Source: Styela clava
Lineage: Eukaryota
Length of the DNA: 64,000 nucleotides
Assembly: GCF_964204865.1 (NCBI RefSeq)
Contig: NC_135255.1
Coordinates: 13,516,001-13,580,000 of the forward strand
Direction: 5' to 3'
Both the position numbers and the translations under genes were made by a program. Of the stretch, positions 13,347 through 54,618 are shown one piece after another. Under the pieces are notes generated by a model. The model did not search any database. It worked only from the letters and a program-made list of their open reading frames with translations, and was not told the origin of the DNA. The stretch's first letter is position 1; the number at the start of each line of letters is the position of its first letter.

Positions 13347-13585
13347 TGCGCTCCCGAAGTATGTGAACCAAAATGGCAGACACCGGAACGTAGTACGTGT
13401 AGGCTACTAGGTTAGGGTTAGGCCATATTTTTATGCCAATTTTCCTTATTTTAGTTCTACTACGAGTTCAGGGACTAGGCAAGTGACTCCTATACTATGT
13501 ACCTGAAATTATGGCCTAGCCCTAACCTGGTACACATACCACGCTCAAGTGTTTGCCATTTTGAATCACATACTTCAGGAGTACC
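13347..13585. mobile_element. Palindromic MITE with internal ggttagggttagg, GG..CC ends, 8-bp TSD (Merlin-like); paralogs 42244-42477 and 59440-59673
   Basis: About 75-bp imperfect TIR; TSD tactagtt is perfect in the 42244 copy. Superfamily tentative. Confidence 0.78.
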
Positions 13586-15478: not shown

Positions 15479-15789
15479 TATATCTTAACACTCATAATCT
15501 CAACAGCCTTGATCTATTTCACTTACATGTAAATCATCCATAAATATGCTTTGTTCTTCCCAACAATTTTCCAACTAATTTCCGGTAAAAGAGAAAGATG
15601 TTTGTCAGTTAATGAATCCGATAATCTCAATAAGTAGTGAAATAATTTCTTCAATTCTGATAAATTAATCACATCTATATCTGAAAAAGAATCCAAAATG
15701 AAGCTAAAATTGAGAACCTAATGTTAATATTAAAATCATGTCATCACTTAGGGTGTAATAAACTAGGCAATGCCGAAACCTGGTAACTA

Positions 15790-19950: not shown

Positions 19951-20404
19951 ACAATCCAAAACACCACAACTTAAAAATAGCAAATTTTTAGTCGATGAAA
20001 TTTAGTGGTTGAAAACAACACAGCATCTAAAAACGAAAGCATCATCCCAATATAAATACTTGCTACAGTACGTTGCTTAATGTAGTAGGTTAGAAAGTAT
20101 AGATGTATTTGCCACTATTTATAAATTACAGATTGTAAGATGTAAGTGGAATTGCAAGTGGATTAATCAAAGCCATATACGTATGCATTCAATTCACTAT
20201 AAACCAGCTGTATTGACTGCATTTGAGTTATATTGCTATTAGCTACAAACAGGCGTTAAATATGAGTAAGGGTATACTATACTGTATGTTTTTGAGCATT
20301 CAATTGCTCGTCAATGAAGTATATTGCAATCAAAGAATTGCAATGCAATGCAGCTGTGTAGACTGCATTTCAATTCTAATGCTAGGTTTAAACAGGCATT
20401 AAAT

Positions 20405-22029
20405 ATGAGTAAGGGTATACTATATTGTATGTTTTTGAGCATTCAACTGCTCGTCAACCAAGTATATTGCAATCAAAGAATTTGTATGCAAATTGAAAAT
20501 GTCAATACAGAAGAAACGTACCCGATTCCACCACAACGAAGCTCACAGGGTGTTCCGGGCAAACGAGGACCTCCTGGTGAAATTGGACCAAAAGGATCAC
20601 AGGGGCCCAGAGGACCAAAAGGAATTGTTGATTATGAAAGAATTAATGCAGCAATAGAATCAGGTAATTTAAATTAATATTGGCCGTAAGCATCAATGGG
20701 GCTTGTACAAAGCCTTGTTTGAAGTAGAAGAACTTGCAAAAATTACAGATTTCCGTATATCAGAATATACTGAAGTTTACTTCTTATTGTATATATATAT
20801 ATAGTTTACATCTTTTTAAATGATGATATAATGACTGTCTGTATAAATGGACTTGGAAAAGACAAAACTTAATAATTGGGTTTGTGCAGAACATCCAAGT
20901 ATGTTATGTTGTGAACTTTATTCACTCATTCATTGGTAAAATTAAAACCATGTATCACTAATTTTAATGCTTTTATAAAATTTAGTTTGTTTGATTTGTA
21001 TTATTACTTCAGCGACCCATACTTTTATATTTAATCCATTGCAGCGATAAATGAGCTGCGGACAGAAACGGAAGAGAAGATGAATAAAACTATGAATGAT
21101 CTTCAGCAGAGGATGGGTAATAGTTACTAAACTATCAATTATGAACAAACATGAATTTAATTTATTTTCAAACTGAGCTAAATGAAATTTTCATTTATCA
21201 AATATAATAGTCAACTGCGAAGTCATTCACAAGAATACTTGTTATCGGATGATACTTCGTGAAACACAAATAAATTTTGACCAAGCAACACAAGCATGTA
21301 GAGATATCCGTATGAATATTGGATACATTCAAGATGGAACACATTATCAAAAAATAGCAGAGTTAGTCAGATCAAAATCAACATCATCTCTTACAGGATA
21401 CTGGACAGGACTATTGTACATAAACTCAGTGAGTATTTAAATATGATTCATAACGAATATGGTGAACCAGCAATTTTTTATCATTTCTATCACATTAAAT
21501 TATCATTGACTTATCTCGGATTAGGCTCAGAGCATAGTGCCAAACGTTAGGAATACGCTTGCCACAACACCTCTGATTACCCTGGGTGGGTTGGATGGTC
21601 CGATCCTGTGTGGGATAACTATGTACCAGATAATTGCTGAATTCCTCGCTTCCATAGGGTGGTTCACATAACCACTGTCCACTGGTCAGTTACAGCTTCC
21701 TTCACCGTCAAGTTCATGCATCAGAAAACTGGCTAACTAACCCCATACCCAACATGACTGGGTTCCCCATATCATTATTAAGTCACCTTATCGTCTCACC
21801 CTTGATACATATGTAACTCCCATCCTATCTATTTCAGCAACTTGTGACACTTTCTGGAAATCCATCACCATTCACTAAATGGTATCCGGGTACACCCAGA
21901 AGTGGTGAGCAATACAAAAATGTGTTCATTTATGTCAGGAAAGATACAGGAAGTGTATACCAGGGCATGGATAACTACCTTCCAACAGACACACAACCTG
22001 GAGTGTTATGTCAAATCATGTATACTTAA
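20405..22029 (+). CDS. Collectin copy 3, 246 aa; exons 20405-20663, 21045-21116, 21211-21428, 21838-22029
   Basis: Same exon sizes (259/72/218/192) and motifs as copy 2; open frame. Confidence 0.92.
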
Positions 22030-23444
22030 GATCGGATTAAAAGCATTATCCACAGAGTTATATTTGTTAACTTCTCTGATCACACAATACTACAAGGCTA
22101 GTTATATTGTCAATATTCAAATAACGTAAATCATATGGTGCACCTGATTACAGAATTCCATTTTTTATTATTATTTTATGATTTGATTATTATCTTGCTT
22201 GATATCAATCCTCCATGAGATGACTATGGTCAAAATTAATAATATATAAATAATGAAAAATAAAAAAGTCTGGTATATATAAAAGATAGAAATGGGAGAA
22301 GCATATTTGATTATTAAAGCAGTTGTTTTGTGGAAAACAGCAAATTTTCATTTTATGACAGTTGAAGGATTAATTAACATTAACAAACAGACAATTTTTC
22401 TTAATACCATTAATTCTTTGGAAGGGAATTTGATGAAAAAACAATGTCATGCGCACTCTAAAATAAAGGAAATTGATAACCACTAAAGTATAAAGAGCTA
22501 CTGAGATTATAAGAATTTTGATGTAGAATTCAGTGTTAGTGCACGTGTATTCAAAATATAATGCAATAAACGTAATAAAGGATCTATAATTAGAAAACAT
22601 CTCAATACCATACCTGTGTGGCAGCTAAGCTGTCTCCCCTCTCCACCAAAACATCTGCCCACATCATAGAAATATCAGTCACTTTCTTTTTCATCTGTCT
22701 TATCGTTTCCTCATTTATTAACAGTTTTTGTATCGCAGTAGTCATAGTTTTACACAAAAAACTGTAAATCCAAGAGAAAATTTTTTTCTCCAATGAAAAT
22801 GATGTTATAAATATAACTTTGCCATTGTCAAGATAGAGTTTGTAAAACTTCATTTGTCTTTTCCTATTTTTTCTAACAAAAATGAAAATGAGATAGACAA
22901 GAAGAAATTGAAAACTCAGTCAAATCTTTCCTCTTATTACTAGAATCTTATTATTTTCAGGAACAAATTATTAAAGTTACAAAATTTCTGACATTACATT
23001 TTGATAAATGTGGAATGAAAATTTACATTTCGTTTTAAATCTGCGATGATTTTTAGAATAGAAAGACATAAATCAGAATGATATGTTTAATTTGTTACTG
23101 TATATATACTATGTAAATAAAATCATTCAGTTATTCAGTTGTTTTATTCGTCGATCATGGAGGAATGCAACATAGAATTCAATGATAGGAATAAACAAGT
23201 TATAAAGTACTGGTTAGGATGAAGTTAAAAAAATAGAGGATTCTCAATTCTTACTTGCAACTATTAGCAGTGTCCAATTTTTGCTGAGATATTTCCAATC
23301 GCAATTTTTCCCGAAGTAATTGTAACGCTGATAATGGATCTTCAGTTGATGAAGAATTCTTGATAGCAACTGAATCAATCATAATTATAGTAAAATTCGG
23401 TGTAACTTTGAAAAATCAGAAATTGAATGGATCAAATATCTAAC

Positions 23445-28850: not shown

Positions 28851-30429
28851 TATAATATATGGAATGAGTGTTATCTTTATTTGTCCATGTTTTTTTATAA
28901 TATGCTATCACCATCACCATAATAATTCTCATCAACACTGTGGTTTACTTTGTTTCCAGTATTATTTGCTCCCACCTGACAGAGAAAAATAACTCCAGTA
29001 TGACTTTTTCCCACAAGTATTTTACCTCAATATCCTCAAGATTCCTTAATAGGCTATTCATCATCATTATATAAATTTGCATAAATGTTGTATTTTTACC
29101 CAAATAGTATGTGCACCTTGCAAGAGTCATAGCACAAAATAACTTTATAGCTTATGAACTTTTCCAATAACTGAATGAAGGCAAACTTCATTTAATATTC
29201 TGTTACCTTTAATACTGTAATAGTCAATGTTCCATAACAGGCTAATCATCATTGTATTATTATATTCCATATACGTTGTTCAATAATTTTCCATTATTAT
29301 GTGTTCCACGCATTGACATTTCTCTGCATAAAATCCAAATTATGTATTTCCAGTTCCACTGTTGTTGCGGGGAATCCCCATGTAGTTCGTAGCGGGCTCG
29401 GCGGTGTGGCTCATTGTGCTCAAAGTGACTATAAACTTATAGTCGCTTTGATCAATGACATTAAACAACATGATAGGCAACTCTGACGTCACTCCATAAG
29501 ACTACAGGCAAAACATTGTATTTCATGATACGCTCCAATGCACATATTTCTCGTCGCCTTTCGCGTCCGTTTTCCGCTCGCTTTTGCTACTCGGCGTCTT
29601 TTTTACGTGTAGTACCTGCCTTTTTGCGCCTGTAACGAAACAAAATAATCTCTATATCTAAGAAGTTTTGCTTACTTGGAAAGCTGGAATAACAGGCAAG
29701 CTGTAAAGAGCAATTCTGGACATCATAGACGTTTTTTTTTATCAGAGAAGATTACAAACGCGATAGCGGAAAGATTTGTGTGGAACATTTTGCAGATAAT
29801 GACAAAGTTCAAAGTTAGTAATTTTAATGTTTGCGCTTAATCATTGAATTTTCATTTAAAGAGGGTGTCATACAAAACTGTGCTGCGATACAATTCCATA
29901 ACACAAAGTTTGCACCTATCGAACTTGCTTTTGTAGGTGAATTTATTAGACATATTACATATTCAGTTAATCGTAGGTAACATTGCTGGTACATAATGCA
30001 TCGTAGATAGGTTTGTTTAAATTTAGGAATTTAGCTCATAGCCCACTAATTAATATTATCTTCTATGCAGGAGGTTGCAGGGCTGAATTCAACTTGCAGC
30101 CTTACCGATCACCTGACGATGCTCGTTTAGTTTGGCTCGAGCAAGTCTTCTTGAAATGCTTGTGTGGATGGAAACTACCTATATTTTTTGCCTTCCTCCG
30201 ATTTTAGACAAATTTATTCTGAGGGATTTTGCATATAATTCTCACTGATTGTTGGCTGTTTATAATTCCTATTGATTGTGAATTCTGATTATAACAATGA
30301 GTTGAAAATTTTTACCTAATTTACTGGCACCTTTTTCTTGTCAATACTCCAAGCTGAGGTAATAAACATGACAATACATTTATGTCATCTGGAAGCAAAA
30401 TATGCACACTAATTAATAGTTTGGCACAT

Positions 30430-33400
30430 CAATGACATTAAACAACATGATGCGCAACTCCGGCATTTTTGTCCGAAGATCGTATTCGATAGCACGCTCC
30501 AATGCACATACTTGACGAGACGAAAACGAGCGGATGTGTGCTGCTTTCAAGGCGTAGCACGAATGGTGTTCGTGCCTGCTTTGACAGTTGTTGTCGATTT
30601 TAATGATATTTTTGAAAGTTGGGGTAAAAAGAAATCGGTAAAAGGTAAGGTGAATACTATTGTTGTATATCACACCCGGGCATCGCACTGTTAAGTACAT
30701 GTGGGAAAGCCAGCCTTTGTCAAATACTACGAAGTTATTAATTCAGTACGGTACGTAGTTGCCCATTTGCCGAAATTACATATTTACTTACCCCTTATGG
30801 TTTCAAATAGTTCATGCACCTCCAGTTAGATTTTTTTAATCAGTGAGGATATATACTCATTGTTGATTGCTGCTCATTGTAACATACTATTACGCATTCA
30901 CTTTTATTTGCGTATTGAATCAAAGTGTTAACAAGTTCACCTAACATTTCACTCATACCGGTCTATATTGTATAGTCTGATTTCTCAAGTATTTGGAGCC
31001 ACGAATGCTTGTAATTTTCTGACTAAACCCTTTTATTAGTTGGTTTATATACCAAATTCAGTAAAATATTTTTTAAATAAAACATGAGATATTGGTTTTA
31101 TTAGCTTTTCCATTCTGAATCATATAGACTGCTTTATTTATTCTTAACGAAAATTAATAAATCTCCTCTCTTTCTTCAGATGTGAAAGTTGTGGACAAAC
31201 CTGTCTAAGCATTGTGAGACTCTTGCAGCACAAGAGGCAATAGCAGAAATAGTAAGTATATCAATCAAGAAATTAAGGCGACATAAAGCAAAACTTTCAA
31301 CTATTCGTCTAATCTCAATTTCCTATTATTTATTCACAGGACAACTATAGCAGACGGGGAGATATCAGAAGTCTGGCGACATATCAGTGACAGTGTGATT
31401 CCAATAAATATAATGCAATTGAAAATAGAAAATTGCAATAGAAAAACAACCTATGGAGGCATGCAAAGACATTTGACCCTCCGGTAGAGTTGTGTATGGC
31501 CCCCACATCCTGCAGGGCTTGAGGAAAATAACTAAAAATTTCAAAGCGTAAGATTGCATAAGCGGTCTTATTTGTAAAAAGGCACAAAACACGCCAGACA
31601 TACTTAAAACAGCTTTGGAAATGAGGATTACGGGTACCTCACTGCACTTGTGTTATATTTGGTTCATCAACTTTTGGTAGTACTATAGAAGAAATTCCGG
31701 AAGAGGTATAATCATCATTCATGATAAAATACTATCATATATTTTTTGAACAACTTCAATCTAGACCAGGGATCTCAAACTCGCGGCCCCAGAGAACTTC
31801 CAGTGCGGTCCTCGAACGCTTAACAATAATTGTAATATTATTTTTGAAGTTTTTTTTTTTATCTAAATGTAATAGATTTTTCAAACCTTCTAAAGTGAAA
31901 TTGATTATTCACACAGAAAACAATTTACTGAAAGTAGTTTTGGAATATTAATTTTTTTGTCCACATTTTGACCCAATTAAGAATACACATCAAGCTAGCA
32001 AAAGAATACTTGAATAAAACACTTGAGTAATTAAATTAAACGCAAAGTACATGAAGAAGGTGGCATTTTCGAAGAAAATGGGAGTTGTAACATTTCTGCT
32101 CTTCACAAAATTCTGAAGCACATTGTTTAATTTGTCATATTTCCGTCAATACAATCAAAAAACACAATAAGCTCAGCAGTCAATATGACAAATTCGAAGA
32201 CCAACTTCGAACAGAAAATTTCCATGTGTTTGTATATTAATATAATTATACAAAGACTTAGTTACTAAAAATCAATATCAATAATAATTCAAGCAATCCT
32301 ATGCCACGCAATGTAGTGCGAAATGTCTTGTCGAAAAAATCTGTCATTTGTTTTTTTACTGATCTATACATGAAATGATAAAAGTAACTTTTTTGCATTA
32401 CTGGAATTAATTAAACATTCGTAAAGATCCAGATAAACCCATGATCATGTGGCCTCGTTAGTTAGAGTTGGTACTATAAAATCATTTCAGACTGGCCTTA
32501 GTATGCTGGTGACACAAAAAAGATGCCAAACGCCAGGACAAATGTAATTATTAAAACATTGAGTTTATACTGTAGTATTTTTGTTAATTTTAGGTTCATA
32601 TATTTAGATTAAGTTATTTTTAGTGTATGTATTATTCTTTCCTTATTCAAAGCTTGTTCAAAAATGATTTTGATGGTTGTACATAGAATTTTACGATTTT
32701 TTATAATAAATACTGTAACTTGCAAATGTTGCAATAATAGTGGAATGCAAATATTAATATGTAATTGCATTTGAAATTGAAGAAAATAATAAAACTTAAT
32801 CCAACTGTTTAGTTGCATCACAATATATGTCACAAACTAAAACTATCTTAAAAATATCTTTCAAGTATACATTATCAAAAACTGTTTGCGGCTCTTTTTA
32901 CAATTTTCAAAATGCAATGCGGCTCTCGAAAACCCATGAGTTTGACACCACTGATCTATTCTAGACGATTCAAGCATTGCTTTGGGAAATTATATCACTT
33001 CAATTAAATTGAAATAATCTCGCTATATTAAATACAAAATCGTTGCTATCATAAAGGTAAACCAATTCAGCCACTCGAAATATATTGGCCTTCACAAAGC
33101 AATGGAGGCAAAATTGAGAGTTCATGAGCTATGAACATTTGTTCTTTTCTTTGTCTTGAACTTTTCATACTCCACAGCCCCTATTAATTTTTTTTAATTT
33201 TAATTACCATGTGATGGTCATACATATCTTTAACTTGTATTTTCTGTCATGATGTATTATCTCAATGTGCCAAACTATTAATTAGTGTGCATATTTTGCT
33301 TCCAGATGACATAAATGTATTGTCATGTTTATTACCTCAGCTTGGAGTATTGACAAGAAAAAGGTGCCAGTAAATTAGGTAAAAAAATTTTCAACTCATT

Positions 33401-34243
33401 GTTATAATCAGAATTCACAATCAATAGGAATTATAAACAGCCAACGATCAGTGAGAATTATATGCAAAATCCCTCAGAATAAATTTGTCTAAAATCGGAG
33501 GAAGGCAAAAAATATAGGTAGTTTCCATCCACACAAGCATTTCAAGAAGACTTGCTCGAGCCAAACTAAATGAGCATCGTCAGGTGATCGGTAAGGCTGC
33601 AAGTTGAATTCAGCCCTGCAACCTCCTGCATAGAAGATAATATTAATTAGTGGGCTATGAGCTAAATTCCTAAATTTAAACAAACCTATCTACGATGCAT
33701 TATGTACCAGCAATGTTACCTACGATTAACTGAATATGTAATATGTCTAATAAATTCACCTACAAAAGCAAGTTCGATAGGTGCAAACTTTGTGTTATGG
33801 AATTGTATCGCAGCACAGTTTTGTATGACACCCTCTTTAAATGAAATTTCAATGATTAAGCGCAAACATTGAAATTACTAACTTTGAACTTTGTCATTAT
33901 CTGCAAAATGTTCCACACAAATCTTTCCGCTATCGCGTTTGTAATCTTCTCTGATAAAAAAAAACGTCTATGATGTCCAGAATTGCTCTTTACAGCTTGC
34001 CTGTTTTTCCAGCTTTCCAAGTAAGCAAAACTTCTTAGATATAGAGATTATTTTGTTTCGTTACAGGCGCAAAAAGACAGGTACTACAAGTAAAAAAGAC
34101 GCCGAGTAGCAAAAGCGAGCGGAAAACGGACGCGAAAGGCGACGAGAAATATGTGCATTGGAGCGTATCATGAAATACAATGTTTTGCCTGTAGTCTTAT
34201 GGAGTGACGTCAGAGTTGCCTATCATGTTGTTTAATGTCATTG
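30430..34243 (-). mobile_element. Second complete copy (3814 bp) of the same P-superfamily element, inserted inverted into the first
   Basis: Own TIRs, 7-bp TSD ggcacat (30423-30429, 34244-34250); the uninterrupted target is visible inside this copy at about 33261-33280. Confidence 0.92.
31767..32953. mobile_element. hAT (Charlie-like) MITE carried inside the P element; second copy 34562-35748
   Basis: cagggatctcaaactc / gagtttgacaccactg ends at a tctaga target; gcggcc subterminal motifs; 1187 bp in both copies. Confidence 0.8.
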
Positions 34244-37200
34244 GGCACATTGAGATAATACATCATGACAGAAAATACAAGTTAAGGATATGTATGACCA
34301 TCACATGGTAATTAAAATTAAAAAAAATTAATAGGGGCTGTGGAGTATGGAAAGTTCGAGACAAAGAAAAGAACAAATGTTCATAGCTCATGAACTCTCA
34401 ATTTTGCCTCCATTGCTTTGTGAAGGCCAATATATTTCGAGTGGGTGAATTGGTTTACCTTTATGATAGCAACGATTTTGTATTTAATATAGCGAGATTA
34501 TTTCAATTCAATTGGAGTGATATAATTTCCCTAAGCAATGCTTGAATCGTCTAGAATAGATCAGTGGTGTCAAACTCGTGGGTTTTCGAGAGCAGCATTG
34601 CATTTTGAAAATTGTAAAAAGAGCCGCAAACAGTTTTTGATAATGTATACTTAAAAGATATTTTTAAGATAGTTTTAGTTTGTGACATATATTGTGATGC
34701 AACTAAACAGTTGGATTAAGTTTTATTATTTTCTTCAATTTCAAATGCAATTACATATTAATATTTGCATTCCACTATTATTGCAACATTTGCAAGTTAC
34801 AGTATTTAATATAAAAATCGTAAAATTCTATGTACAACCATCAAAATCATTTTTGAACAAGCTTTGAATAAGGAAAGAATAATACATACACTAAAAATAA
34901 CTTAATCTAAATATATGAACCTAAAATTAACAAAAATACTACAGTATAAACTCAATGTTTTAATAATTACATTTGTCCTGGCGTTTGGCATCTTTTTTGT
35001 GTCACCAGCATACTAAGGCCAGTCTGAAATGATTTTATAGTACCAACTCTAACTAACGAGGCCACATGATCATGGGTTTATCTGGATCTTTACGAATGTT
35101 TAATTAATTCCAGTAATGCAAAAAAGTTACTTTTATCATTTCATGTATAGATCAGTAAAAAAACAAATGACAGATTTTTTCGACAAGACATTTCGCACTA
35201 CATTGCGTGGCATAGGATTGCTTGAATTATTATTGATATTGATTTTTAGTAACTAAGTCGTTGTATAATTATATTAATATACAAACACATGGAAATTTTC
35301 TGTTCGAAGTTGGTCTTCGAATTTGTCATATTGACTGCTGAGCTTATTGTGTTTTTTGATTGTATTGACGGAAATATGACAAATTAAACAATGTGCTTCA
35401 GAATTTTGTGAAGAGCAGAAATGTTACAACTCCCATTTTCTTCGAAAATGCCACCTTCTCCATGTACTTTGCGTTTAATTTAATTACTCAAGTGTTTTAT
35501 TCAAGTATTCTTTTGCTAGCTTGATGTGTATTCTTAATTGGGTCAAAATGTGGACAAAAAAATTAATATTCCAAAACTACTTTCAGTAAATTGTTTTCTG
35601 TGTGAATAATCAATTTCACTTTAGAAGGTTTGAAAAATCGATTACATTTAGATAAAAAAAAAAACCTTCAAAAATACTATTACAATTATTTTTAAGCGTT
35701 CGAGGGCCGCACTGGAAGTTCTTTGGGGCCGCGAGTTTGAGATCCCTGGTCTAGATTGAAGTTGTTCAAAAAATATATGATAGTATTTTATCATGAATGA
35801 TGATTATACCCCTTCCGGAATTTCTTCTATAGTACTACCAAAAGTTGATGAACCAAATATAACACAGGTGCAGTGAGGTACCCGTAATCCTCATTTCCAA
35901 AGCTGTTTTAAGTATGTCTGGCGTGTTTTGTGCCTTTTTACAAATAAGACCGCTTATGCAATCTTACGCTTTGGAATTTTTAGTTATTTTCCTCAAGCCC
36001 TGCAGGATGTGGGGGCCATACACAACTCTACCGGAGGGTCAAATGTCTTTGCATGCCTCCATAGGTTGTTTTTCTATTGCAATTTTCAATTTTCAATTGC
36101 ATTATATTTCTTGGAATCACACTGTCACTGATATGTCGCCAGACTTCTGATATCTCCCCGTCTGCTATAGTTGTCCTGTGAATAAATAATAGGAAATTGA
36201 GATTAGACGAATAGTTGAAAGTTTTGCTTTATGTCGGCTTAATTTCTTGATTGATATACTTACTATTTCTGCTATTGCCTCTTGTGCTGCAAGAGTCTCA
36301 CAATGCTTAGACAGGTTTGTCCACAACTTTCACATCTGAAGAAAGAGAGGAGATTTATTAATTTCCGTTAAGAATAAATAAAGCAGTCTATATGATTCAG
36401 AATGGAAAAGCTAATAAATCCAATATCTCATGTTTTATTTAAAAAATATTTTACTGAATTTGGTATATAAACCAACTAATAAAAGGGTTTAGTCAGAAAA
36501 TTACAAGCATTCGTGGCTCCAAATACTTGAGAAATCAGACTATACAATATAGACCGTTATGAGTGAAATGTTAGGTGAACTTTTTAACACTTTGATTTAA
36601 TACGCAAATAAAAGTGAATGCGTAATAGTATGTTACAATGAGCAGCAGTCAACAATGAGTATATATCCTCACTGATTAAAAAAATCTAACTGGAGGTGCA
36701 TGAACTATTTGAAACCATAAGGGGTAAGTAAATATGTAATTTCGGCAAATGGGCAACTACGTACCGTACTGAATTAATAACTTCGTAGTATTTGACAAAG
36801 GCTGGCTTTCCCACATGTACTTAACAGTGCGATGCCCGGGTGTGATATACAACAATAGTATTCACCTTACCTTTTACCGATTTCTTTTTACCCCAACTTT
36901 CAAAAATATCATTAAAATCGACAACAACTGTCAAAGCAGGCACGAACACCATTCGTGCTACGCCTTGAAAGCAGCACACGTCCGCTCGTTTTTGTCTCGT
37001 CAAGTATGTGCATTGGAGCGTGCTATCGAATACGATCTTCGGACAAAAATGCCGGAGTTGCGCATCATGTTGTTTAATGTCATTGCTTTGATCGTGCTAA
37101 GCGTTAGGAATACGCTCGCCCCCGCATCTCTGATTACTCTGCATGGGTTCGCAGGTTCGAATCCCATGCGGGATAGTTATGTGCGGGAAGATTGCTGGAC

Positions 37201-37424: not shown

Positions 37425-38837
37425 TTTGGTCCAAACCCAGGTTCGCGGGCCACATGTGGCCCACCGCTCCATTATCTGTGGCCCGCGTCGCATTTGCGCC
37501 AACGTAGACAAAAAATCGTATTTGGTGTTGTTTCGTCAAAATAAAAATAACCGGAAAAATCTTTTGACATATTGTTACATCACTAATTTAACTGAATTGA
37601 CTAGTGTTATGGCTAGTGAAGTTGAATAATAATGTGCTCGGCTAGTCTAAATTGTCAACTGGCTTTCTATTTTTTTGGGGGGTCGGGAATATCTGCTAAC
37701 AAAATAGGCTTCATAGAAAACTAAAAATCAAATGAGTTGGTTATACATGATAACTGAATATTACTGTAATGGCCTAACAATATAATTCCTGCGGGTGTTT
37801 TATTGCAACCAGCCTTAACAGTAATACAAAAAATGCTGCCTATTTATCAGAAAATTTAGTAATTACCCTTCTGTATCTCAAATTAGGTAAAATTCGGTAA
37901 TCAGTCAATTTGCAGTTATTTGTAGGTTATTTTGTAAATATGAGTTTGAAAAGAAAGCTGACCAATTTAAAGAGATATTTGACTTAATATAGGAAGGAAA
38001 ATACCACAATGTTTGCTTAAATATGTCTGCAAATTGTGTCGGTGACAATCTAAAACGGCATTTTCTCATTATGTCACTTTATCCGTTATGATGAGTAACA
38101 AACGTGAAGAGTGACAAACTTTATGTATTCCACTTTGTTATAAAATAATAATATCCCGTGCCTCTTGTGCGGACAGGACATGCCATTAATCTTTGAAAAT
38201 TCAACACTTTATCGGTATATACCGGTACGTAATTTTGATAAATACGGTCATCTTCGACAGGGAAAGGCGCAATTTCTAAGTTAGTAATTTTAGGTTCAAG
38301 GTGTGTGACAAACTTTATTTATTCTACTCTGATATATAATAATAAAACCGCGTGCCTCTTGCGCGGCGGCCATGCTATTAATCTTTGGGAATTGCAATAT
38401 TTAACACTTTATCGGCATAGGTAATTTTGATAAATAGGGGTATCTTCAAACAGGGAAAGATCCCAATTTCTAAGTTCGAGTAGCTCTATAGGTTCTAAGT
38501 GTGTGACAACTTTATATATTCCAACTTGACATAAAATCGCATACCTCCTGTGCGGATACCGGTTTCATGTCATATTACCATTTTCAATGAGTTGCATTTA
38601 CTTTTAAAAATCAGTTGAATAAAACAAATCAGCCGGTTCCGCGTTCATTATTTTGTTTCAGTTAGTATTGTATTATCTACCACTAGAGATTCTTGTATCG
38701 ATACCCAACACCACTAAAATTTATGAGAATGTGATAGATACTTAGTTTATACGCGTAGAACGGCGACGCTACATTTTGTGAACTGGTGAAACTGTCGTCG
38801 ATTGTGTCTGCAGTCCTATTCCCTAACTAAAGTGGAG
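37425..38837. mobile_element. hAT-like non-autonomous element with damaged left end; paralog about 54642-56073
   Basis: ccaaac..cgcgggccacatgtggccc left motifs; gtttgaagagccctg|ttctagac right end. Confidence 0.5.
38111..38555. repeat. About 195-bp tandem repeat x2.3 (paralog about 55327-55770)
   Basis: gtgacaaacttta...gcctcttg.gcgg recurs at 38111, 38305 and 38503. Confidence 0.8.
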
Positions 38838-41800
38838 CCCCAGTTTGAAGAGCCCTGTTCTAGACATTGACAGGGATAAACAAAGAGAAGGATATGGATA
38901 AATATCAAAACCTTATATCGACATAAAAACTATTCTTTGATGTCCTTTCATTTCTAAATCTGGACAAAATGTAAGGAAATCCAAGTTTGATAACAAAATG
39001 CAGACAAAGTCACGCAAATGTATTTATTAAAAAAAGTAATAATATGCCATCAAAAGCATTTTTGCTTGCAGTGAGTGTCCAAGTGAAAAATGGAATACAG
39101 AAAATGGATAAAGCAGTGACGGAAACATAAATACAAAGACGGAAAAAATAAAAACTGCTGAAGATCAAAAAAAATCTTGGATCTTCTAAACTTCCAAATT
39201 TGCAGAAAATGAGATATTCTAGACAAGGATCTTCTCACGAACTCGACAATAATTGAGCATCATTCACAGGAACAAATCGTATGCACAAAACTTTGGTTTA
39301 GGTCGGAAGGAACCATCCAGTTTCTTGACAATATTCTGGTGCAGAATTGATCTTCAAAACACTTTCCATCAATTCGTTATGGTTACACTTAAACTAAGCA
39401 AGTAGTCCTACAATACACCAAGTACTGCATAAAACAAAACAATATTAATTGGCATCTGCGAAGCCCATGAAGGAGCCGAGATGCGAAAATAACAGTTCAT
39501 GTTTGTTGTAGAACGGAACCTACTGCAGTAATAAACAGTACTTACTGCAAGTTGAGGAGACCGGGTACTGCAGAATATGAAAATCGAAGATATACCTGAA
39601 AAAAAATAAGTGGCAAAGATGTGTAGAAAAGATTAATCTTAAGAAAAATTTCCTTTAATATCCTGCTCTATCGAAATGGAAAAGTTTGATTAGAACAAAT
39701 ACAGGCAACCACCCTGCTATATTCTAAGGGCACCCACTTCCAAATACCCTACATTTCTATTTTCTGATGCAAAATATACTGTATATATACAAAAATGTAA
39801 AATATTGAGATGCTTAATATAGTAACAAAGATAACCAATCACTCTCACCTTTTTATTGCAAGAAATTAACTTGAGGAGTTTTGGGCAGAAGACATCCTGC
39901 ATCCATCTGTAACCATGATGAACATCGAATCTTTTCCGGAATAAAATCTTCAGGTTTCGCATATGTTTTCAGAGTGGTGAGATACTGCAGTAACAGAGAA
40001 AACGTATATTAAAACAAACAAATAGTAACGACATTGTGTAGAATGGAAAGGAATATAGAAAGAAGATTAACGAATCAAAAATCCACAATGTCAGTTCTTC
40101 TTGCGGTTTCAACACAAGACATCTTGAGTAATTTCCGAAGCAATCAAAACACCTCCAACAGGCAATGCAAGAGTGATTTCAAATATCTGAAGTTACTATA
40201 AACTTTATCTGCCTCTCTTAACACAATACTCTATCCTGTTGTTCCTAAACTGTTCTGATGAAGAGACTAAATACAAGTCGATATAAATATTTAACCTGAA
40301 ATTTTAGATTGGATGTTTCCTAAATATGCATGTTAATATTCGATATTAGGAAGAAAAAAATCCAGGAGCCCTAAGTCTGCTGAAACTATACTGAAATCAC
40401 ATGAATATGAGTTTCTTATTACTTTAAAATGGGACATTCCTAAAAGAGTGTGAGAAAGAATTTTAAAAGAAAATTTCTTTATTTTTCTTCAGAATGCAAA
40501 ATAATAGGAATGTCCATAGAATTCAGACATGACGAAGCCCGGGTTTCAGGGCTATAACATGCAGAAAACGCAATTTACTGTTTTAAAATATTGTGAATAA
40601 ATTGTACAAATTCAAAAACTTGAAGATTCCAGACTTCAAAGTCAAAACTAAAAGAATGACGAAATTCAAGCAAAGGACTAAATTAACAGGTTAAATGATT
40701 TGGTTTCTGCAGACTAACTACTTAACTTTTATGCTTTTGTGTCGATGAATCCATATGCACTCAATGCAAGGATGCTGTAGTAAGAGTGGAGATAACTATC
40801 CTAGTGATTCAAAAGTCTTGATGCACACTAACACAAATATATTTCTATAACGTTTCGTCTGACATTGAACTTGAAACAATGATGACAGGCTCTCAAATCA
40901 AACTGAAAGACTAGTCTTTCAACCAGCAAGATTATTAAAACTTCTGGTGTATCACTAGCAAAACAAAGCAGTTTTACAATCCAACATCCTGACTCTTGAT
41001 TCATTGAAATGAAAAATTGCATCTGATTTCAGTACTAGTTTAAGAGAATGAACATTTAACTGTGGCGAATACAAGACACATTCAAAAATCTCATTCTATT
41101 AAAGCTGGAAATTTTCTACCTGCATCTTAAGAACATCTGAAATTAAAACTCCCATAATAGCTAGTTCAAATTTCAACTCATAATCTGAAAGTATGAAAAT
41201 ATGACCCACGAAGAACTCTAAAATGAATGCAATCAAAATAAATCGATTTTACGTACATTTGCAAGAAGCCACATGGTCCCAATTTTTGTATGAAATTATC
41301 ACTTTACAAATATAACAACTTTCTAATTGCACTCACCTGTTGCCCAGGAAACAAAGTTTAAAACATTTTACTAGTTAAGAAAAATTTATATTTACATCAG
41401 TCCACAGCTCACGAGAATACGGTACTGCATCCACAGACCGCCGGGACAGATGTATTGCCTAAAATAGGGATTATTTTCAATAAACATAATTGTCACTTTG
41501 TCAATTTCACAAAATCAAAACTTGATACCCGTACCTTTGATATTCTTCCACGAGAGAAAAGTGACGAGACTGATCTAGATCATTTTGTGAAAAAAAAATA
41601 TAGAAATTAATAAGTTGCCTCATGAAACTTTTATAAATCAATTACAAAAAGGATTTAAACATTTAACATCTAAATACTTGGATTTACATACAACTCGTAA
41701 GAAAACATGTTGATTACCATAAAACTTGAATAGCAAATATATCAAATATCATTCAAAAAAGATTATTCAAGATTTACTACATTTTCCATATCATCATGTT

Positions 41801-42876
41801 TTGACACAATGTAGTTGAAGTTATCCTCCATAATATGGAAACGATTGTTGAGTCATCTCCAAAACTGAGAAAATGTCGGCAAGCCCTGGAATATAAAAAT
41901 ATATTCCATAAAATTTGGAATATCCGAGTTAATGTTCCCGAAACCTTGATCTAAAATGCTGATGAAAGTACAGTCGAAATTGAAAAACCAAACGAATATT
42001 ATTTTTCCATTACAAGATAATTTACAAAGACTGTGTATATCAAATACTAATTCTAAATGCCTATGAAGAACGCTAAAGCTAAAATGTTTCTACAATAACA
42101 TTTCCAAATTTGGTATACCCTAATGGTCCCTTGTTTGATTGAAAGATTGTTGTTAAAGAAACCCATAGAATATAAATTCAAAAATTCACCAAATCAAATA
42201 CAAATATTTATAAACTTATTTAAATAGATGTTGCATACTAGTTGGCGCTCCCGAAGTATGTGGACCAAAATAGCAGACACCGGAACGTAGTACGTGTACT
42301 AGGTTAGGGTTAGGCCATATTTTTATGCCAATTTTCCTTATTTTAGTTCTACTACGAGTTCAGGGACTAGGCAAGTGACTCCTATACTATGTACCTGAAA
42401 TTATGGCCTAGCCCTAACCTGGTACACATACTACGCTCAAGTGTTTGCCATTTTGAATCACATACTTCAGGAGTACCTACTAGTTTACCTTCCAACAAAT
42501 CACCATTTATCCACTTACCTCAATAACAGTGGAACATTATATGGCATCAGATCAGTAAGAAAATTATAAGCAGTTGATATGTGTTGCCTTGTATGAAAGC
42601 ATGATAAGTAGATAGACGCAACCTGTAGTTTATAAAATACTAAAATCAATATTATCATGTAAATACTGTCATTATCAAAAATCGATCGGTCTATGCAAAA
42701 TATTTAGTATCCTAAATGAGTTTATTATCATTAAGCAAAAAAGCAAATTCACAAAAATCTTTATTATTCCGAGAATTAGACATAAACATCTATAAAAAAT
42801 AAAAGGATATGAATTTTAATAAACAACTGTACACTTACTATTATTATGTATCATGTTAGAATCTAGTAACCTAGAG

Positions 42877-44035
42877 CAGTGGTTCCCAACCGCCGGTCCG
42901 CGCAGCTTTTTTGCCGGTCCGCGAGAAATTTCGTAGTTTGGTTGTTTTAATGCCGCCTCAATTGCTTTACCGAAGACGAGGTTGCGTTTATTACGCAATT
43001 TCTCTTCCGCCGTCATATTGCCACATCTTGGCGACGTCTTTCGGGACATCTTATCCCCAGGTAATAACACTTCGCTTTTTCGGCTCTGATTCGCCGCGAA
43101 TGCGCGCCATCGAATCTCGCAAGAATCAGAAACCTAAAAATTGGCACGTGTGTTTTTCTGTTCTTCATGCTTTGCCCGATTAATATGACTATCCATATAA
43201 AACTTTATGCATATTTCTTTGTTTAAACAAAAATACAGTCAAGAACAGTATAATATTCTAGTAAGATATGAAGTTGTTGCGACCCTGCAGGTGGTCACGA
43301 CTCCCGAGACGCGCAAAAAAGCATGGACCGCAGAGATCCATGTATTTTAGGCAGGCACAGTAGGATTTTGGGCCAAGTTACCGACGACTTTGTCATTTTG
43401 TTGTAAATTCATTTTGTTTGAGACGTCAAGCAACTGCAGTGGGATTAATATGATAAACTCGAAAAAGAAAAAACCTCGATTAAAATTGTGATTATACTTT
43501 ACAGTTCAGATTTAAAAAAGTATCACTGTCACAATTTTGGATATCTCTTGATAACGAATACCCATCGCTAAGTAATCGAGCAATCAAACTGTTGTCCGTA
43601 TTTTCAACCAGTTACTTATGCGTTAAAACATTTTCATTATTAGCTTTAATTAAATCGAAGCAGAGAAATCGGCCACACGCCGCTGCATAGCTACGTGATG
43701 CAGAAACTTCTTTGAGGCCTCGTTTACAATCCTATATTTTTCATGTGAGATTTTTTTATGCTGCATTTCATATGCGTAATGAGTGTCCAGCACTGCATTT
43801 CATTACGCAAATATATGGTATTATTTCGTTTCACTCATTTCAATTTTTGGCCGTCACATTATTCGATATTTTTTTTTTCGTGTGACATGTTTTTGGGTGT
43901 GCCTTTTATGTCTAGGAGCATATTGAGTGCCCTACACTGCATTATTTTACGCAAATATATGTTATTCTTTTATGTTCCAGTCATTTCAATTTTAATTTTA
44001 CCGGTCCGCCAGGGTAGAAAGGTTGAGAACCACTG
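42877..44035 (+). mobile_element. hAT (Charlie/Buster-like) deletion derivative with C-terminal dimerisation-domain remnant
   Basis: TIR cagtggttcccaacc / ggttgagaaccactg; perfect TSD acctagag; FWISLDNEYPSLSNRAIKLLSVFSTSYLCVKTFS..IKSKQRNR at about 43510-43730. Confidence 0.93.
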
Positions 44036-47000
44036 ACCTAGAGTACATCATCGCCAATAAGTTCACATTATATTTCTACCTGATTATGAAATGTGTAGTC
44101 AGAAAATCTGGCATCAGAGCTGAGCAATTCATCAATGGCTAATTCTGGAGAACAAGTTGTTATGCATCGGCGAATAACTGCGGTAAAATTCTTTAGCCAT
44201 ATTTGACGCGTTTTTACAGTTATTGTTGTTGGTTCGACTAGTTTTGAGGCAAGATGCTGACGATATAGAAGATATCTGTAAAGAAAATTTGATATAAAAA
44301 ATGGAATCGGGATATTTTTTATTCTAAATGAGAGATGCTTTGACCATTTATGTAGTAGTAGTACTTACATATTTATCCTGGAGGAGAGAAAAGAATGGGA
44401 ATGGACGATGAGCACAACGCCACTGGATATCATCAAGATGTCAAAGGTGACGTGCCAATTGAAATTTTAAGAAGTCGCTTAGACAATTTTTAATTCAAGA
44501 TTCTCAGGCATGGTTGGAAACATTATCTAGCAATTGATTAGTTTTTTCGTTGTCTCCAAACCTTGGGTACAAATTAAACAACTGAATGATTATTTTGTCT
44601 TCCTAAAAGTTTTAAATTCAGTTAAGAGGATCAAAAATGGGTCCTGAGAAGAGAAACTAAAATTAGCTATCAATACTTTTGAATTTTACAATGATGGTAT
44701 CAAGAAGTATCCAAATAAGTATTTCGAGGAAAATGAATTATTTGAATATACTTTTTTTTATTATTAAAAAAATTTGCGAATCTGATTATAAAGTCCCACC
44801 TTAGCCATATTTGTCTTCTATCATTTTCATCACCCACATCCACAATTGCCTTTTCATAATAATCCAGAATAACGTTGACAGATTCGCTGGATAAATCGAG
44901 AATTACACTGAAAAGAACATGATACACCATAAAGCATTGTTCAAAAATGAATAGAATCCAAATAGGAATTCCATTACGATTGGCGTAATCACAAACATTG
45001 ATTGAGTGGCACATCAGGATATTTCTGGATCTACAGGGTGTCCATAAAGTCCCTTTATGATTTCAATTTTGTTACGAAGTCAGGTCTAAATATATCTCAA
45101 CCAGGTTTGTTGCTTTTTAATCAGTGAATTCAAAAGTATTTTTACTTCATCGATCTCGATAAGTATGTTGATAGGTATTTGTTTGTTTGTTTGTCTGTCA
45201 TACACTTTCGTATGTTACGCGATATCTCACGAAAGCAAGGTTGAATCTACTCCAAATTTTGCATGTGCATTCAATATATATTGAATCAGAAGCCTATTGC
45301 TTTTGGATGAATTATGTCGTATAATTAGCGAGTTATTAATTATTTAGTGATGGAACATGCGGTGTTGTTATTGAGTCAGAGCGAAGGAATCGAAACCGCA
45401 GATCGATAAGTCGACGGTCTCCGATCGCTAGCTAGTTTAATACATCTGTCAGGGCCTAAACAATATATGACATCGATAAATACCATTTGCAATATTAAAA
45501 AAAAATGAGTCACCCTATATTATCTTAACACTCATAATCTCAACAGCCTTGATCTATTTCACTTACATGTAAATCATCCATAAATACGCTTTGTTCTTCC
45601 CAACAATTTTCCAACTAATTTCCGGTAAAAGAGAAAGATGTTTGTCAGTTAATGAATCCGATAATCTCAATAAGTAGTGAAATAATTTCTTCAATTCTGA
45701 TAAATTAATCACATCTATATCTGAAAATGAAACTAAAATGAAACAAAAATTGAAGAACTAATTTTATTGTTTAACTCATGTCCTCACAGATAGCGGGGTA
45801 GGCAATGGCAAAGCCTGGTTAATTATATCAGAATCAAAAATTGGTAGTTAAGTGTAGTACTCACTACTATTGAGGGTAAATACCACTCATTACATCATGT
45901 AATTGTAATCCAGCTCTTTAGGAATATTTTATGCTCAGTATCTACTTGATGGTACTCATTTCATTTCATATTTGCGATTTCCTCACTCAGCTTTTTGCAA
46001 TTTAGTTGTTGCCTAAAACTTGATTCAAAAATCAGTCACTTTCACTTCTAAGTGAGTGACAATGAACAACGTATAATATAGGTATGACCTCCTTCGCTCT
46101 TAGTTTCATCAATATCATTTAGTATGTTTATTGATTGATAGATCAGGAATTGGACATAATATAACAATTATATTACACACGATGAATCTTAATTTGATGA
46201 AAACTACAAAACTTTTACCTATTTTCAAATAGGCTGAAGCACAAGTTTCAAAATACAGAAGTGCAGCATCAATGTCCGATGATTCTTGATTCAATTGAAA
46301 CAAAGCTGCTTCATAACAAAGTTTTGCATCATATGGATTTTCTGTCACAGCTTCTTCAAAGACCTTTAAAAAAGTAATATTAAATAGATAACAATTCTTT
46401 TTGCCTGTTTGTTTATCCATGACTGTTATAATATCCCATTAAAAACATTCATCAATAAATATGTATTCACAAATAAATAATATTACAATGCAAACCTTAA
46501 TAAGGATTATTTTGTCAAGATTAGAATATTCAACTTGAAAACTTTCATGTAGCCTAGTCAAAATCATATTACATTACTCTTACGTATCTAATATATTAAA
46601 TTTCCTGATTTGAATACTATCACAAGAAAAATATTTTCTTTTCTTATACTTTTCAAAAAAAAAAAAAGTTTGATAATTCAGTCAGTGCCTTGTTTTCATG
46701 GTTCAGTTGTAGTTACAAAAAAACATGATAAATAACTACTTTCAAGTCGAAAAATATTATTCAAACACACCGACGATTGTTTTTGATCCTTCATTATTTC
46801 CTCGCACGAAAAGGTCAAAACTTCTATTCACAAGTCACAACAATACCAAAAGTGCAGAAATTTCATAGCAAAATAGCATGGGAAACAAGTTTTTTGTAAT
46901 TTCCCATGACAACCCAAAACATTCCACAACAATTTTCATACACTTTCCCAAGACAATTCAAAACACTCAACAAAAATAGCATTTTTAGTCGTTGGAATTT

Positions 47001-47261
47001 TGTGGTTGAAAACAACACAGCATCTAAAAACGAAAGCATCATCCCAATATAAATACTTGCTACAGTACGTTGCTTAATGTAGTAGGTTAGAAAGCATAGA
47101 TGTATTTGCCTCTGTTTATAAATTACAGATTGTAAGATGTAAGTGGAATTGCAAGTGGATTAATCGAAGCCATATACGTATGCATTCAATTCACTATAAA
47201 CTAGCTGTATTGACTGCATTTGGGTTATAATGCTAATGTTAGCTTCAAACAGGCATTAAAT

Positions 47262-48882
47262 ATGAGTAAGAATATACTATATTGTATGTTTTTGAGCATT
47301 CAATTGCTCGTCAATCAAGTATATTGCAATCAAAGAATTTGCATGCAAATTGAAAATGTCAATGCAGAAGAAACGTACCCGATTCCACCACAACAAAGCT
47401 CACAGGGTGTTCCGGGCAAACGTGGACCTCCTGGTGAAATTGGCCCGAAAGGGCCACAGGGGCCAAGAGGCCCAAAAGGAATTGTTGATTATGAAAGAAT
47501 TAATGCAGCAATAGCATCAGGTAATTTAAATTAATATTTATTTGCTATTGGCCGTAAGCATCAGTGACGCTTGTACAAAGCCTTGTTTCGAGTGGAAAAT
47601 CTTGCAAAAATTACAGATTTCCCTTTTTACAGTTTACTTCTTATTGTAAATATATATATATGCTTTACATCTTTTTAATTGATGATATGAAGACTTTCCG
47701 TATAAATGGACTTGGTATATACAAACTTAATAATGGGGTTTTGGCAGAACATCTAAGTATGTTGTGTTGCAAACTTTATTCACTCATTCATTGAAAAATT
47801 TAAAAAAATAGTGTATCACTAATTTCAATGTTTTTAAAAAATTTAGTTTGTTTGATTTGTACTATTAGTTCAGCGACCCATTTATATATAACTTATTGCA
47901 GCAATAAATGATCTGCGGACAGAAACGGAAGAGAAGATGAATAAAACCATGAATGATCTTCAGCAGAGAATGGGTAATATTTACTAAACTATCAATTATG
48001 TAAAACTGTTTTGTTAACATTACATGATGAATTTTTTGTCAAAGAGTTTTGAAACATGAAATTAAAAGCCAACTAGAAACATAAAAATTGTTTGGCAAAC
48101 ATGATTTAGAATCTAGAATCCCCAATAAACAGAACTAAATATATTTTTCTTTTTCTAAATATAATAGTCAACTGCGAAGTCTTTTACAAGAATAATTGTT
48201 ATCGGATGGAACTTCGCAAAACCACAATGAATTTTGACCAAGCAACACAAGCATGTAGAGATATTGGTATGAATATTGGACACATTCAAGATGAAACACA
48301 TTACCAGAAAATAGCAGAGTTAGTCAGATCAAAATCAACATCATCTCTTACAGGATACTGGACAGGACTATTGTACAAAAACTCAGTGAGTATTTAAATT
48401 TGATTCATAATGAAGATGTTCAACTACAAATTCTTACGCTCGCCACAGCACCTCTGATTACCCTGCGTGGGTTCGCTGGTTTGGATCCTGTGTGGGTTAA
48501 TTATGTACAAGATGAATGCAGAACTTCTAGCTTTCATAAGGTGGTTCACATAACCTGTGGTCAGTTACAGCTTCCTTCACCGTCATGTCTATTCATCAGA
48601 GAACTGGCCAACTAACCCCATACCCAACATGATTATTAAGCCGCCTTGATAAATATGTAAATCCTATCCTATCTATTTCAGCAACTTGTGACACTTTCTG
48701 GAAATCCATCACCGTTCACTAAATGGTATCCAACTTTGCCACTTTCACCCGTTAGTGGCAATAATTACAGAAATGTGTACATTTATGTCAGGAAAGATAC
48801 AGGAAGTGTAAACCACGGCATGCATAACAACAATCCAACAGCCACACAACCTGGAGTGTTATGTCAAATCAAGTATACTTAA
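47262..48882 (+). CDS. Collectin copy 4, 249 aa; exons 47262-47520, 47902-47973, 48168-48385, 48682-48882
   Basis: Same structure; exon 4 has a 9-nt in-frame insertion in the long loop (WYPTLPLSPVSGNNYRNV). Confidence 0.92.
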
Positions 48883-54251: not shown

Positions 54252-54618
54252 GGCTCGGCGGTGTGGCTCATTGTGCTCAAAGTGACTATAAACTTATAGT
54301 CGCTTTGATCGTGCTAAGCGTTAGGAATACGCTCGCCCCCGCATCTCTGATTACTCTGCATGGGTTCGCAGGTTCGAATATCATGCGGGATAGTTATGTG
54401 CGGGAAGATTGCTGGACTCCTCGCCGTCGTAGGGTGGATCACGTAACCGCTGGCCGGTTACGGCTTCCTCTACCATCAAGTCCATGCTTCCGGAACAAAT
54501 AACTAACTAATCCCATACCCGACATGGACTGGTAACCGGACGAGATGCCGTGGTTCGCCATATGGATAAGCCGTCTTATCGACTTTCCTCTCCCCCGGGA
54601 TAAATTTATAAATCCTAT
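54252..54618 (+). mobile_element. tRNA-SINE with a 30-bp hairpin insert in its A box; paralog split as 29395-29452 + 37086-37401
   Basis: High similarity to 7972-8321. Confidence 0.9.
54278..54307. other. Probable P-element excision footprint (paralog 29421-29450)
   Basis: caaagtgactataa-ac-ttatagtcgctttg hairpin flanked by attgtgct / atcgtgct. Confidence 0.65.

What the first reader, a model, noticed from the sequence alone, without database searches (positions are those of the whole stretch)
29453..37085. P-superfamily element inserted inverted into a copy of itself, making a 7.6-kb double foldback
Seen: a complete 3814-bp copy sits 977 bp inside a near-identical outer copy in opposite orientation, each with its own 7-bp TSD. 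This gives about 2.8-kb inverted arms (30430-33270 vs 34244-37085) plus about 1-kb arms, and four TIRs that could pair in several ways. Both ends share a subterminal acgctccaatgcacata. Known: Drosophila P has 31-bp TIRs and hops locally; Galileo has 7-bp TSDs and long TIRs. Inference: recent P activity, a plausible route to Galileo-like long TIRs, and a fragile site within the array.
Basis: partly seen in the sequence, partly recalled or inferred. Interest (0 to 1): 0.7.

Follow-up and report, generated by a model that had tools for sequence, protein, structure and literature searches.

The report
Nested relics of split P transposon
Two dead copies of a very common sea-squirt jumping gene sit one inside the other, likely an ordinary accident, but their intact relative encodes a cutting enzyme without its usual tail domain and carries that tail as a second, facing gene, so the working enzyme is likely built from two proteins.

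Summary
The nested structure is as described: a 3814-bp copy lies inverted 977 bp inside a 3812-bp copy, each with its own 7-bp TSD; a paralogous empty site lies in the window. The interpretation mostly fails. The element is a non-autonomous family of about 460 dispersed copies. Inner and outer differ by 39-40 substitutions (family median 42), while the outer's nearest sampled relative is on another chromosome (13), so this is not a local self-hop. Two other nests and 13 end-to-end junctions occur elsewhere; no mobilised long-TIR derivative was seen; reads neither confirmed nor refuted the junction. The interest lies in the family: an intact 10.15-kb relative (C18) has the same ends and two convergent spliced genes, an 856-aa THAP/RNase H/GBD transposase that stops before the C-terminal domain, and a 310-aa C2H2 protein carrying that domain (PDB 6p5a chain B, Z 10.3). 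The window's copies keep scraps of both genes. CTD-less transposases form one branch, and 21 of 26 metagenome loci with room carry a separate CTD gene. This scan reported the two-gene P layout before on other DNA, including this genome; my ten paper searches found no description.

The parts
29446..29452 (+). outer TSD, left copy (CTTTGAT)
   Evidence: single copy at the empty paralogous site 54303-54309
29453..30429 (+). outer element, 5' 977 bp (TIR 29453-29483, subterminal 17-mer 29530-29546)
29697..29824 (+). decayed THAP exon end of gene 1 (outer copy); inner counterpart 33872-33999 on -
   Evidence: 82% nt and 76% aa to the C18 element
30076..30175 (+). 33-codon scrap of the transposase core, fused to the start of exon 2 by a deletion (outer copy); inner counterpart 33521-33620 on -
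   Evidence: 73% aa, E 2e-9
30423..30429 (+). inner TSD, left copy (GGCACAT)
30430..34243 (-). inner element, complete 3814-bp non-autonomous copy, inverted (TIRs 30430-30460 and 34213-34243; 17-mers 30494-30510 and 34150-34166)
30563..30667 (+). decayed exon 1 of gene 2 (inner copy); outer counterpart about 36848-36952 on -
   Evidence: 75% aa over 16 residues, E 0.011, weak alone
31169..31240 (+). decayed C2H2 exon of gene 2 (inner copy); outer counterpart about 36275-36346 on -
   Evidence: 85% aa over 20 residues
31498..31775 (+). decayed P-transposase-CTD part of gene 2 (inner copy); outer counterpart about 35740-36017 on -
   Evidence: 44-53% aa, E 3e-13
34244..34250 (+). inner TSD, right copy (GGCACAT)
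34251..37085 (+). outer element, 3' part (17-mer 37005-37021, TIR 37055-37085)
37086..37092 (+). outer TSD, right copy (CTTTGAT)
54303..54309 (+). empty paralogous target site in the duplicated array segment, inside a repeat that looks like a tRNA-derived SINE (judged by eye, not tested)

Best explanation
The 7.6-kb structure is one non-autonomous P-type transposon copy inserted backwards into another copy of the same 460-copy family, likely by an ordinary cut-and-paste jump from a distant donor, and the family is a gutted relative of a two-gene P element whose transposase likely works as two proteins. Shown: both TSDs, the empty site, the family size, the non-sibling relation of inner and outer, the intact relative on C18 with the same ends, gene 1 ending 62 residues after the last catalytic motif without a CTD, gene 2 carrying the CTD on the opposite strand, and the same layout in other families and organisms. 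Inferred: the outer copy landed first in an intergenic repeat of a collectin-like gene array; a second, unrelated copy was later excised elsewhere and pasted at a target-like 7-mer inside it; mobilisation was in trans by a gene-1/gene-2 pair such as the C18 element, with THAP binding the shared subterminal 17-mer; the gene-2 protein would dock between RNase H and GTP-binding domains and supply the DNA contacts that the fused CTD supplies in the fly enzyme.
For: Nest. Family: 461 5' and 460 3' exact ends (930); 29 of 30 fetched copies with a 7-bp TSD, one with 8; target consensus GTYWRAC from 30 TSDs read on both strands. Non-sibling; a 28-mer with two inner-specific changes occurs once in the genome; the one change shared only by inner, outer and the C16 copy is a CpG transition. 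Uniform chance alone gives about 1 nest for 450 copies; three were seen (window, C19 direct, C1 inverted). Parent type: C18:4775463-4785616, 10154 bp, TSD GTCAGAC, shares ends and 13 colinear segments at 69-93%; 8 exons, all GT-AG, 856 aa, no stop; Pfam THAP (E 5e-4, under cut-off), TNP-like RNaseH_N, GBD, RNaseH_C over cut-off; last exon matches 6p5a_A 251-548, E 2e-16. Gene 2: 310 aa, identical to the RefSeq model P0213; C2H2 over cut-off; profile's only PDB hit 6p5a_B, E 3.4e-5; model pLDDT 84, top of 48161 chains 6p5a_B, Z 10.3, rmsd 2.7 over 112 of 118 residues, next Z 6.5. Same convergent pair in the C19/C2, C6, C5 and C1 loci. Of 40 long homologues, 20 end 50-75 residues after QDxLE with no CTD, 16 have 239-291-residue tails with a CTD, 4 lacked the motif. 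80 metagenome loci: of 26 with 1200 bp or more downstream, 20 have a CTD gene on the opposite strand, 1 on the same strand, 5 none. 26 CTD-less rows against 17 fused, SH-aLRT 99.
Against: No read or contig bridging the inner-left junction was listed in four runs. The inner's donor lineage was not found; only 30 of about 460 copies were compared, chosen by likeness to the inner. Three nests with only C1+C2 surveyed by end pairing is above the uniform expectation of 1, so 'chance' includes a real target preference. The C18 element is only 69-93% alike to the family in shared segments and its TIR differs at two positions (12 exact ends of that type), so it is a relative, not shown to be the mobiliser. 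Foldseek ranks 6p5a_B first but at E 0.5. No TIR pair with a 7- or 8-bp TSD was found around the gene pairs in 20 metagenome loci tested. The tree is the quick search, midpoint-rooted, with a long C18 branch and rows collected by likeness to the C18 protein. No expression or activity data were examined.
Confidence: 0.78

Rival explanations
1. Local hop: the outer copy's own sister-chromatid copy jumped into it.
For: Same family, adjacent, 98.9% alike; inner and outer fall in one loosely supported 7-copy subgroup and share one further change with the C16 copy; local hopping is known for P (PMC7776569, passage); a 99.7% identical head-to-head pair exists at C1:14.49 Mb.
Against: 40 substitutions, the family median; the outer shares 15 derived changes only with a C16 copy, spread on both sides of the insertion point, and that copy has no footprint at position 977.
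Confidence: 0.05
2. The nest is a step towards a Galileo-like long-TIR element or a fragile site: inner and outer ends pair as new composite units.
For: Four intact ends allow 5'-5' (4.8 kb, 1-kb arms) and 3'-3' (6.7 kb, 2.8-kb arms) pairs. One inverted dimer on C8 has its middle TSD reverse-complemented, which fits a flip between arms.
Against: 74 of 75 inward pairs on C1+C2 are 5'-3'; none is a mobilised same-end unit. The two ends are not equivalent (17-mer at 78 versus 65 bp). Galileo TIR growth is ascribed to tandem repeats and recruited internal sequence (PMC3573991, passages). Six inverted end-to-end dimers with 7-bp spacers are stronger palindromes than this nest and persist.
Confidence: 0.08
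3. Gene 2 is not a transposase subunit but a regulator or targeting factor (or gene 1 is active without a CTD).
For: Gene 2 has extra parts absent from the fly CTD: a C2H2 finger and a four-helix region at 50-143; 14 of 131 homologues of 150 aa or more carry a C2H2 pattern. The family re-uses the same 7-bp targets (13 junctions).
Against: The fly CTD makes many transposon and target DNA contacts and the CTD-less 66-kDa form is a repressor (PMC7776569, passages); loss of the CTD from gene 1 and presence of gene 2 go together in 21 of 26 loci.
Confidence: 0.25
4. Assembly artefact (collapsed or inverted chimeric reads).
For: No bridging record in four runs; long inverted repeats are hard to assemble.
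Against: Correct TSDs at both levels, an empty paralogous site and 39 evenly spread differences between arms.
Confidence: 0.03

Closest known systems
Drosophila melanogaster P element and 87-kDa transposase (PDB 6P5A/6PE2; PMC7776569, passages)
   Same: 31-bp TIRs starting CA, internal binding-site-like motif at unequal distance from the two ends, THAP, RNase H with GTP-binding insertion, a homologous CTD fold, spliced gene, non-autonomous deletion derivatives, end-to-end dimers spaced by one TSD (10.1101/158386, passages).
   Different: 7-bp rather than 8-bp TSD; CTD encoded by a separate convergent gene with a C2H2 finger; parent type 10 kb rather than 2.9 kb.
Galileo and 1360/Hoppel (PMC4168063, PMC3698922, PMC3573991; passages)
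   Same: P superfamily, 7-bp TSD, palindromic target consensus beginning GT and ending AC (Galileo GTANTAC; here GTYWRAC).
   Different: Short 31-bp TIRs, introns, two genes; the long arms here are a by-product of nesting, not the element's TIRs. Relationship to Galileo or 1360 transposases was not tested.
One-gene THAP9-like P family of the same genome (C9:2.46 Mb and about ten copies)
   Same: Same catalytic core (24-28% aa) and a homologous CTD (hhalign probability 92; HMM E 8e-22).
   Different: CTD fused; unrelated ends; no nucleotide match to the nested family.
Two-gene DNA transposons such as PIF/Harbinger and MuDR (recalled, no call)
   Same: A transposase gene plus a second, often convergent, gene inside the TIRs.
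   Different: Here the second gene is a piece of the superfamily's own one-chain transposase, not an unrelated accessory protein.

Membership tests
P superfamily | Transposase with P-type split RNase H and GTP-binding insertion | tested here: met
   C18 relative: PF21787, PF21788, PF21789 over cut-off; 6p5a_A E 2e-16; window copies keep a 33-codon scrap
P superfamily | N-terminal THAP domain | tested here: met
   PF05485 E 5e-4 on exon 1 alone, 21.3 bits against cut-off 23.9; C2CH residues and AIP box visible in the spliced product
P superfamily | Short TIRs and 7-8-bp TSD | tested here: met
   31-bp TIR; 29 of 30 copies 7 bp, one 8 bp
P superfamily | Catalytic D, D, E present | tested here: met
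   MDE at 460-462, CDG at 551-553, QDPLE at 790-794; QDPLE aligns with QDIVE of 6p5a_A; assignment of the two aspartates is by recalled motif
Canonical one-gene P / THAP9 | CTD fused to the transposase | tested here: not met
   Gene 1 stops 62 residues after QDPLE, no CTD hit; CTD is in gene 2
Galileo | Long (hundreds of bp) element TIRs | tested here: not met
   Self-comparison of one copy gives only the 31-bp TIR and a 38-bp subterminal match
Galileo | Intronless single transposase gene | tested here: not met
   8-exon gene plus a second 3-exon gene; Galileo intronless per PMC3698922 passage
Galileo / 1360 | Transposase groups with Galileo or 1360 in a tree | not tested
   No Galileo or 1360 sequence was in hand
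Local-hop product | Inner and outer are each other's closest relatives | tested here: not met
   13 substitutions to a C16 copy against 40; 30 of about 460 copies compared
Two-protein transposase | Both products needed and in contact | not testable with these tools
   Needs a transposition assay

The most novel reading that the evidence does not exclude
A widespread clade of marine-invertebrate P elements uses a naturally split transposase: gene 1 is equivalent to the fly's CTD-less repressor form, and gene 2 is a separately expressed activating subunit whose zinc finger helps choose targets, so the ratio of two convergent transcripts replaces the fly's germline splice switch, and repeated use of the same 7-bp sites (13 junctions, a trimer, three nests) is its footprint.
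Probability: 0.4. Interest if true: 0.75.

Novelty: new variant of a known kind. Interest (0 to 1): 0.52.

Why it matters
The nest itself is ordinary. The family behind it offers a natural split of the P transposase at the disordered linker before the CTD, with an intact pair, identical to an annotated gene for gene 2, and about 460 ready substrates in one genome. That makes the role of the CTD (DNA contacts, activation, target choice) and the repressor-versus-transposase switch directly testable by two-plasmid assays, and could give a two-key transposon tool. It also explains a large set of unnamed 'C2H2 plus helical domain' proteins in invertebrate annotations as transposon genes.

Tried and rejected
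Read support: two layings of four coded runs each showed high depth on the element and no listed bridging piece; inconclusive. Complex prediction of the gene-1 last exon with gene 2 gave no answer (score 0.00 twice, partner fold uncertain); no evidence either way. Donor search with one inner-specific 28-mer found only the inner copy. The intact one-gene THAP9-like family was rejected as partner: no nucleotide match, different ends. A metagenome scan with one CTD protein found nothing. TIR/TSD search around 20 metagenome gene pairs found no convincing TSD-flanked ends; many contigs are short. Longer end pairs on C1/C2 (4.0-8.5 kb) were family copies with secondary insertions, not autonomous elements. 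The careful tree did not finish; the quick tree was used, with only 5 of 12 attempted metagenome pairs included. Literature: ten searches; none listed a two-gene P element, but three papers I wanted (a Ciona P-element paper, a P review and the structure paper) were not held, and Repbase and subscription journals were not searchable, so absence from print is not shown.

Full report
Observation. A self-comparison of the window shows arms 30430-33274 / 34241-37085 at 98.8% and 29453-30450 / 33247-34243 at 98.4%. The junctions are clean: CTTTGAT flanks the outer copy, GGCACAT flanks the inner one, the inner copy holds its own un-interrupted target once, and the 96%-identical duplicate of the flanks holds the empty outer site at 54303-54309. 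Inner (3814 bp) and outer (3812 bp) differ by 39 substitutions and 4 gap columns. The TIR is 31 bp with two mismatches; the 17-mer lies 78 bp from the 5' end and 65 bp from the 3' end. In two layings of four public runs each, no listed piece bridged the inner-left junction, but the runs are not known to be this animal. The structure is accepted on the TSDs and the scattered arm differences.

Setting. The site is intergenic in an array whose units begin with a short collagen exon (Pfam Collagen E 9e-5, under cut-off; six such exons in 84 kb) followed by exons that look like a C-type lectin domain by eye. The outer copy interrupts a repeat that looks like a tRNA-derived SINE (by eye). Protein labels name the host as the sea squirt Styela clava.

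Family. The genome (377 Mb) holds 461 exact 5' ends and 460 exact 3' ends (930; controls 0). Of the 30 best copies fetched (of 50 matches, 37 of 882 candidates scored), 29 have a 7-bp TSD and one 8 bp; the 31 sequences including the outer differ by a median of 42 substitutions (range 3-66) on a star-like tree. Older subfamilies at about 90% exist. The TSD consensus from 30 sites is GTYWRAC.

Local hop. The outer copy's nearest sampled relative is on C16 (13 substitutions, 15 derived changes shared by these two alone); the inner copy is 40 away and has no close relative among the 30, and a 28-mer with two of its private changes is unique in the genome. The C16 copy has no footprint at position 977 and the single change shared by inner, outer and C16 only is a CpG transition. 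The nest is therefore younger than the outer/C16 split and was made by an already diverged copy. The sample was chosen by likeness to the inner, which favours finding its sibling, yet none was found.

How unusual. Uniform insertion of 450 copies gives about one nest, half of them inverted. Two more were found: direct on C19 and inverted on C1, with only C1 and C2 surveyed by end pairing, so nests are probably a few-fold above uniform chance. End-to-end junctions are far more enriched: 13, all spaced by exactly 7 bp out of 0-15 allowed, 6 direct, 6 inverted, 1 other, including a trimer on C9; eight adjacent pairs measured differ by 0.9-6.3%, as expected for double insertion at one target, which is described for fly P (10.1101/158386, passages). 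On C1+C2 (92 5' and 89 3' ends; the truncated C3 rows were dropped) 74 of 75 inward pairs under 20 kb are 5'-3', and the exception is the C1 nest: no mobilised long-TIR unit. The window's arms show no conversion tract (P 0.27).

Autonomous relative. A Pfam search of the genome gave 44 P-type core matches; of the 30 fetched, one on C18 matched an internal scrap of the element. It lies in a 10154-bp element with TIR CAATGACATATAACAACATGAT, TSD GTCAGAC and the same 17-mers, abutting a family copy at the same target. Gene 1 has eight exons, all GT-AG, and gives 856 aa without a stop: THAP, RNase H, GBD, matching 6p5a chain A, and ending 62 residues after QDPLE. Gene 2 runs the other way, three exons, 310 aa, identical to an existing RefSeq model. 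It has a C2H2 finger, and its C-terminal half is the P-transposase CTD: only PDB sequence hit 6p5a chain B, E 3.4e-5; probability 92 against the fused CTD of a one-gene family in the same genome; structure model pLDDT 84, best of 48161 chains 6p5a_B at Z 10.3, rmsd 2.7, 112 of 118 residues (Foldseek first rank but E 0.5). It is the only intact transposase of this kind among the candidates scored; a C2 copy keeps gene 2 only. The window's copies retain colinear scraps of both genes. Identity is 69-93% in shared segments, so C18 is a relative of the family's progenitor, and that it mobilises the family is inferred from the shared ends.

Breadth. The convergent pair recurs in more distant families of this genome (C19/C2 with an 8.5-kb element, CAATGAG ends and a 7-bp TSD; C6; C5). 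A profile search gave 187 proteins; the best 150 are all 437 aa or shorter, and of the 131 with 150 aa or more, 14 carry a C2H2 pattern and 6 are pieces of fused transposases; named ones come from Styela, Ciona and two snails, though many unnamed ones may be fragments. Of 40 long homologues of gene 1, 20 (including Hydra and Saccoglossus) end 50-75 residues after QDxLE without a CTD, 16 have a fused CTD, 4 lacked the motif. A Ciona transposase and a Ciona CTD protein have neighbouring locus numbers on a contig of the same length. In 80 metagenome loci, 21 of the 26 with 1200 bp or more downstream have a separate CTD gene (20 opposite strand), and 5 of the other 54 do. A quick tree puts 26 CTD-less rows on one side against 17 fused rows, support 99.

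Mechanism. [quoted passage not shown] A split at that linker is structurally easy, so the most likely reading is an enzyme assembled from the two products; this is inferred, not shown. That the 66-kDa form keeps all three catalytic residues is recalled, not checked.

Literature seen. Passages of PMC4168063, PMC3573991, PMC3698922, PMC7776569 and 10.1101/158386; other papers only as search listings; no supplements were opened. Ten searches listed no two-gene P element; three wanted papers were not held and Repbase was not available. I reached the two-gene reading before looking at earlier scan notes; those notes report the same layout on other DNA, once in this genome, and are not independent support.

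Verdict. Observation confirmed; local hop, long-TIR route and fragile site unsupported; the nest alone would score about 0.2. The family's split two-gene transposase is a new variant of the P superfamily with a direct test, which sets the overall score.

Noticed in passing
L077 (G000:C1:14491780-14499363): Head-to-head pair 99.7% identical, one copy lacking 41 bp of its 5' end and the right flank without the TSD; looks like a true local or aberrant transposition event.
   Followed up: partly
L235 (G000:C8:13935000-13944000): Inverted dimer whose middle TSD is the reverse complement of the outer two, as a flip by recombination between arms would leave.
   Followed up: partly
L231-L232 (G000:C9:590640-601541): Three family copies in direct tandem with four CTCAGAC spacers; neighbours about 6% apart.
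   Followed up: partly
L228 (G000:C2:3747054-3754738): 95 bp of a 3' end, then two full copies, with mismatched inner TSDs but matching outermost TSDs; a rearranged nest or dimer.
   Followed up: partly
L078 (G000:C2:1061285-1068803): Tail-to-tail dimer with a 7-bp spacer, a near-perfect 7.5-kb palindrome of about 98% identical arms.
   Followed up: partly
L070, L071 and about ten loci (e.g. G000:C9:2.46 Mb): A young one-gene THAP9-like P family with open frames of 662-834 aa, 96-99% alike, with unrelated ends.
   Followed up: partly
L072+L113 (G000:C19:15766263-15774775): A second two-gene family, 8.5 kb, TIR starting CAATGAGCATATATACAATG, 7-bp TSD, frameshifted transposase and intact-looking gene 2.
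   Followed up: partly
window 24-404, 16722-17057, 20318-22030, 47214-47531: Tandem array of collectin-like genes (signal-like N terminus, short collagen, lectin-like exons); a 46115-46438 (-) frame and a second repeated unit at 9659-15747 / 38555-45787 / 55771-61754 were not identified.
   Followed up: no
L174 and L182 (metagenome): Two loci carry the separate CTD gene on the same strand as the transposase, about 220 bp downstream.
   Followed up: no
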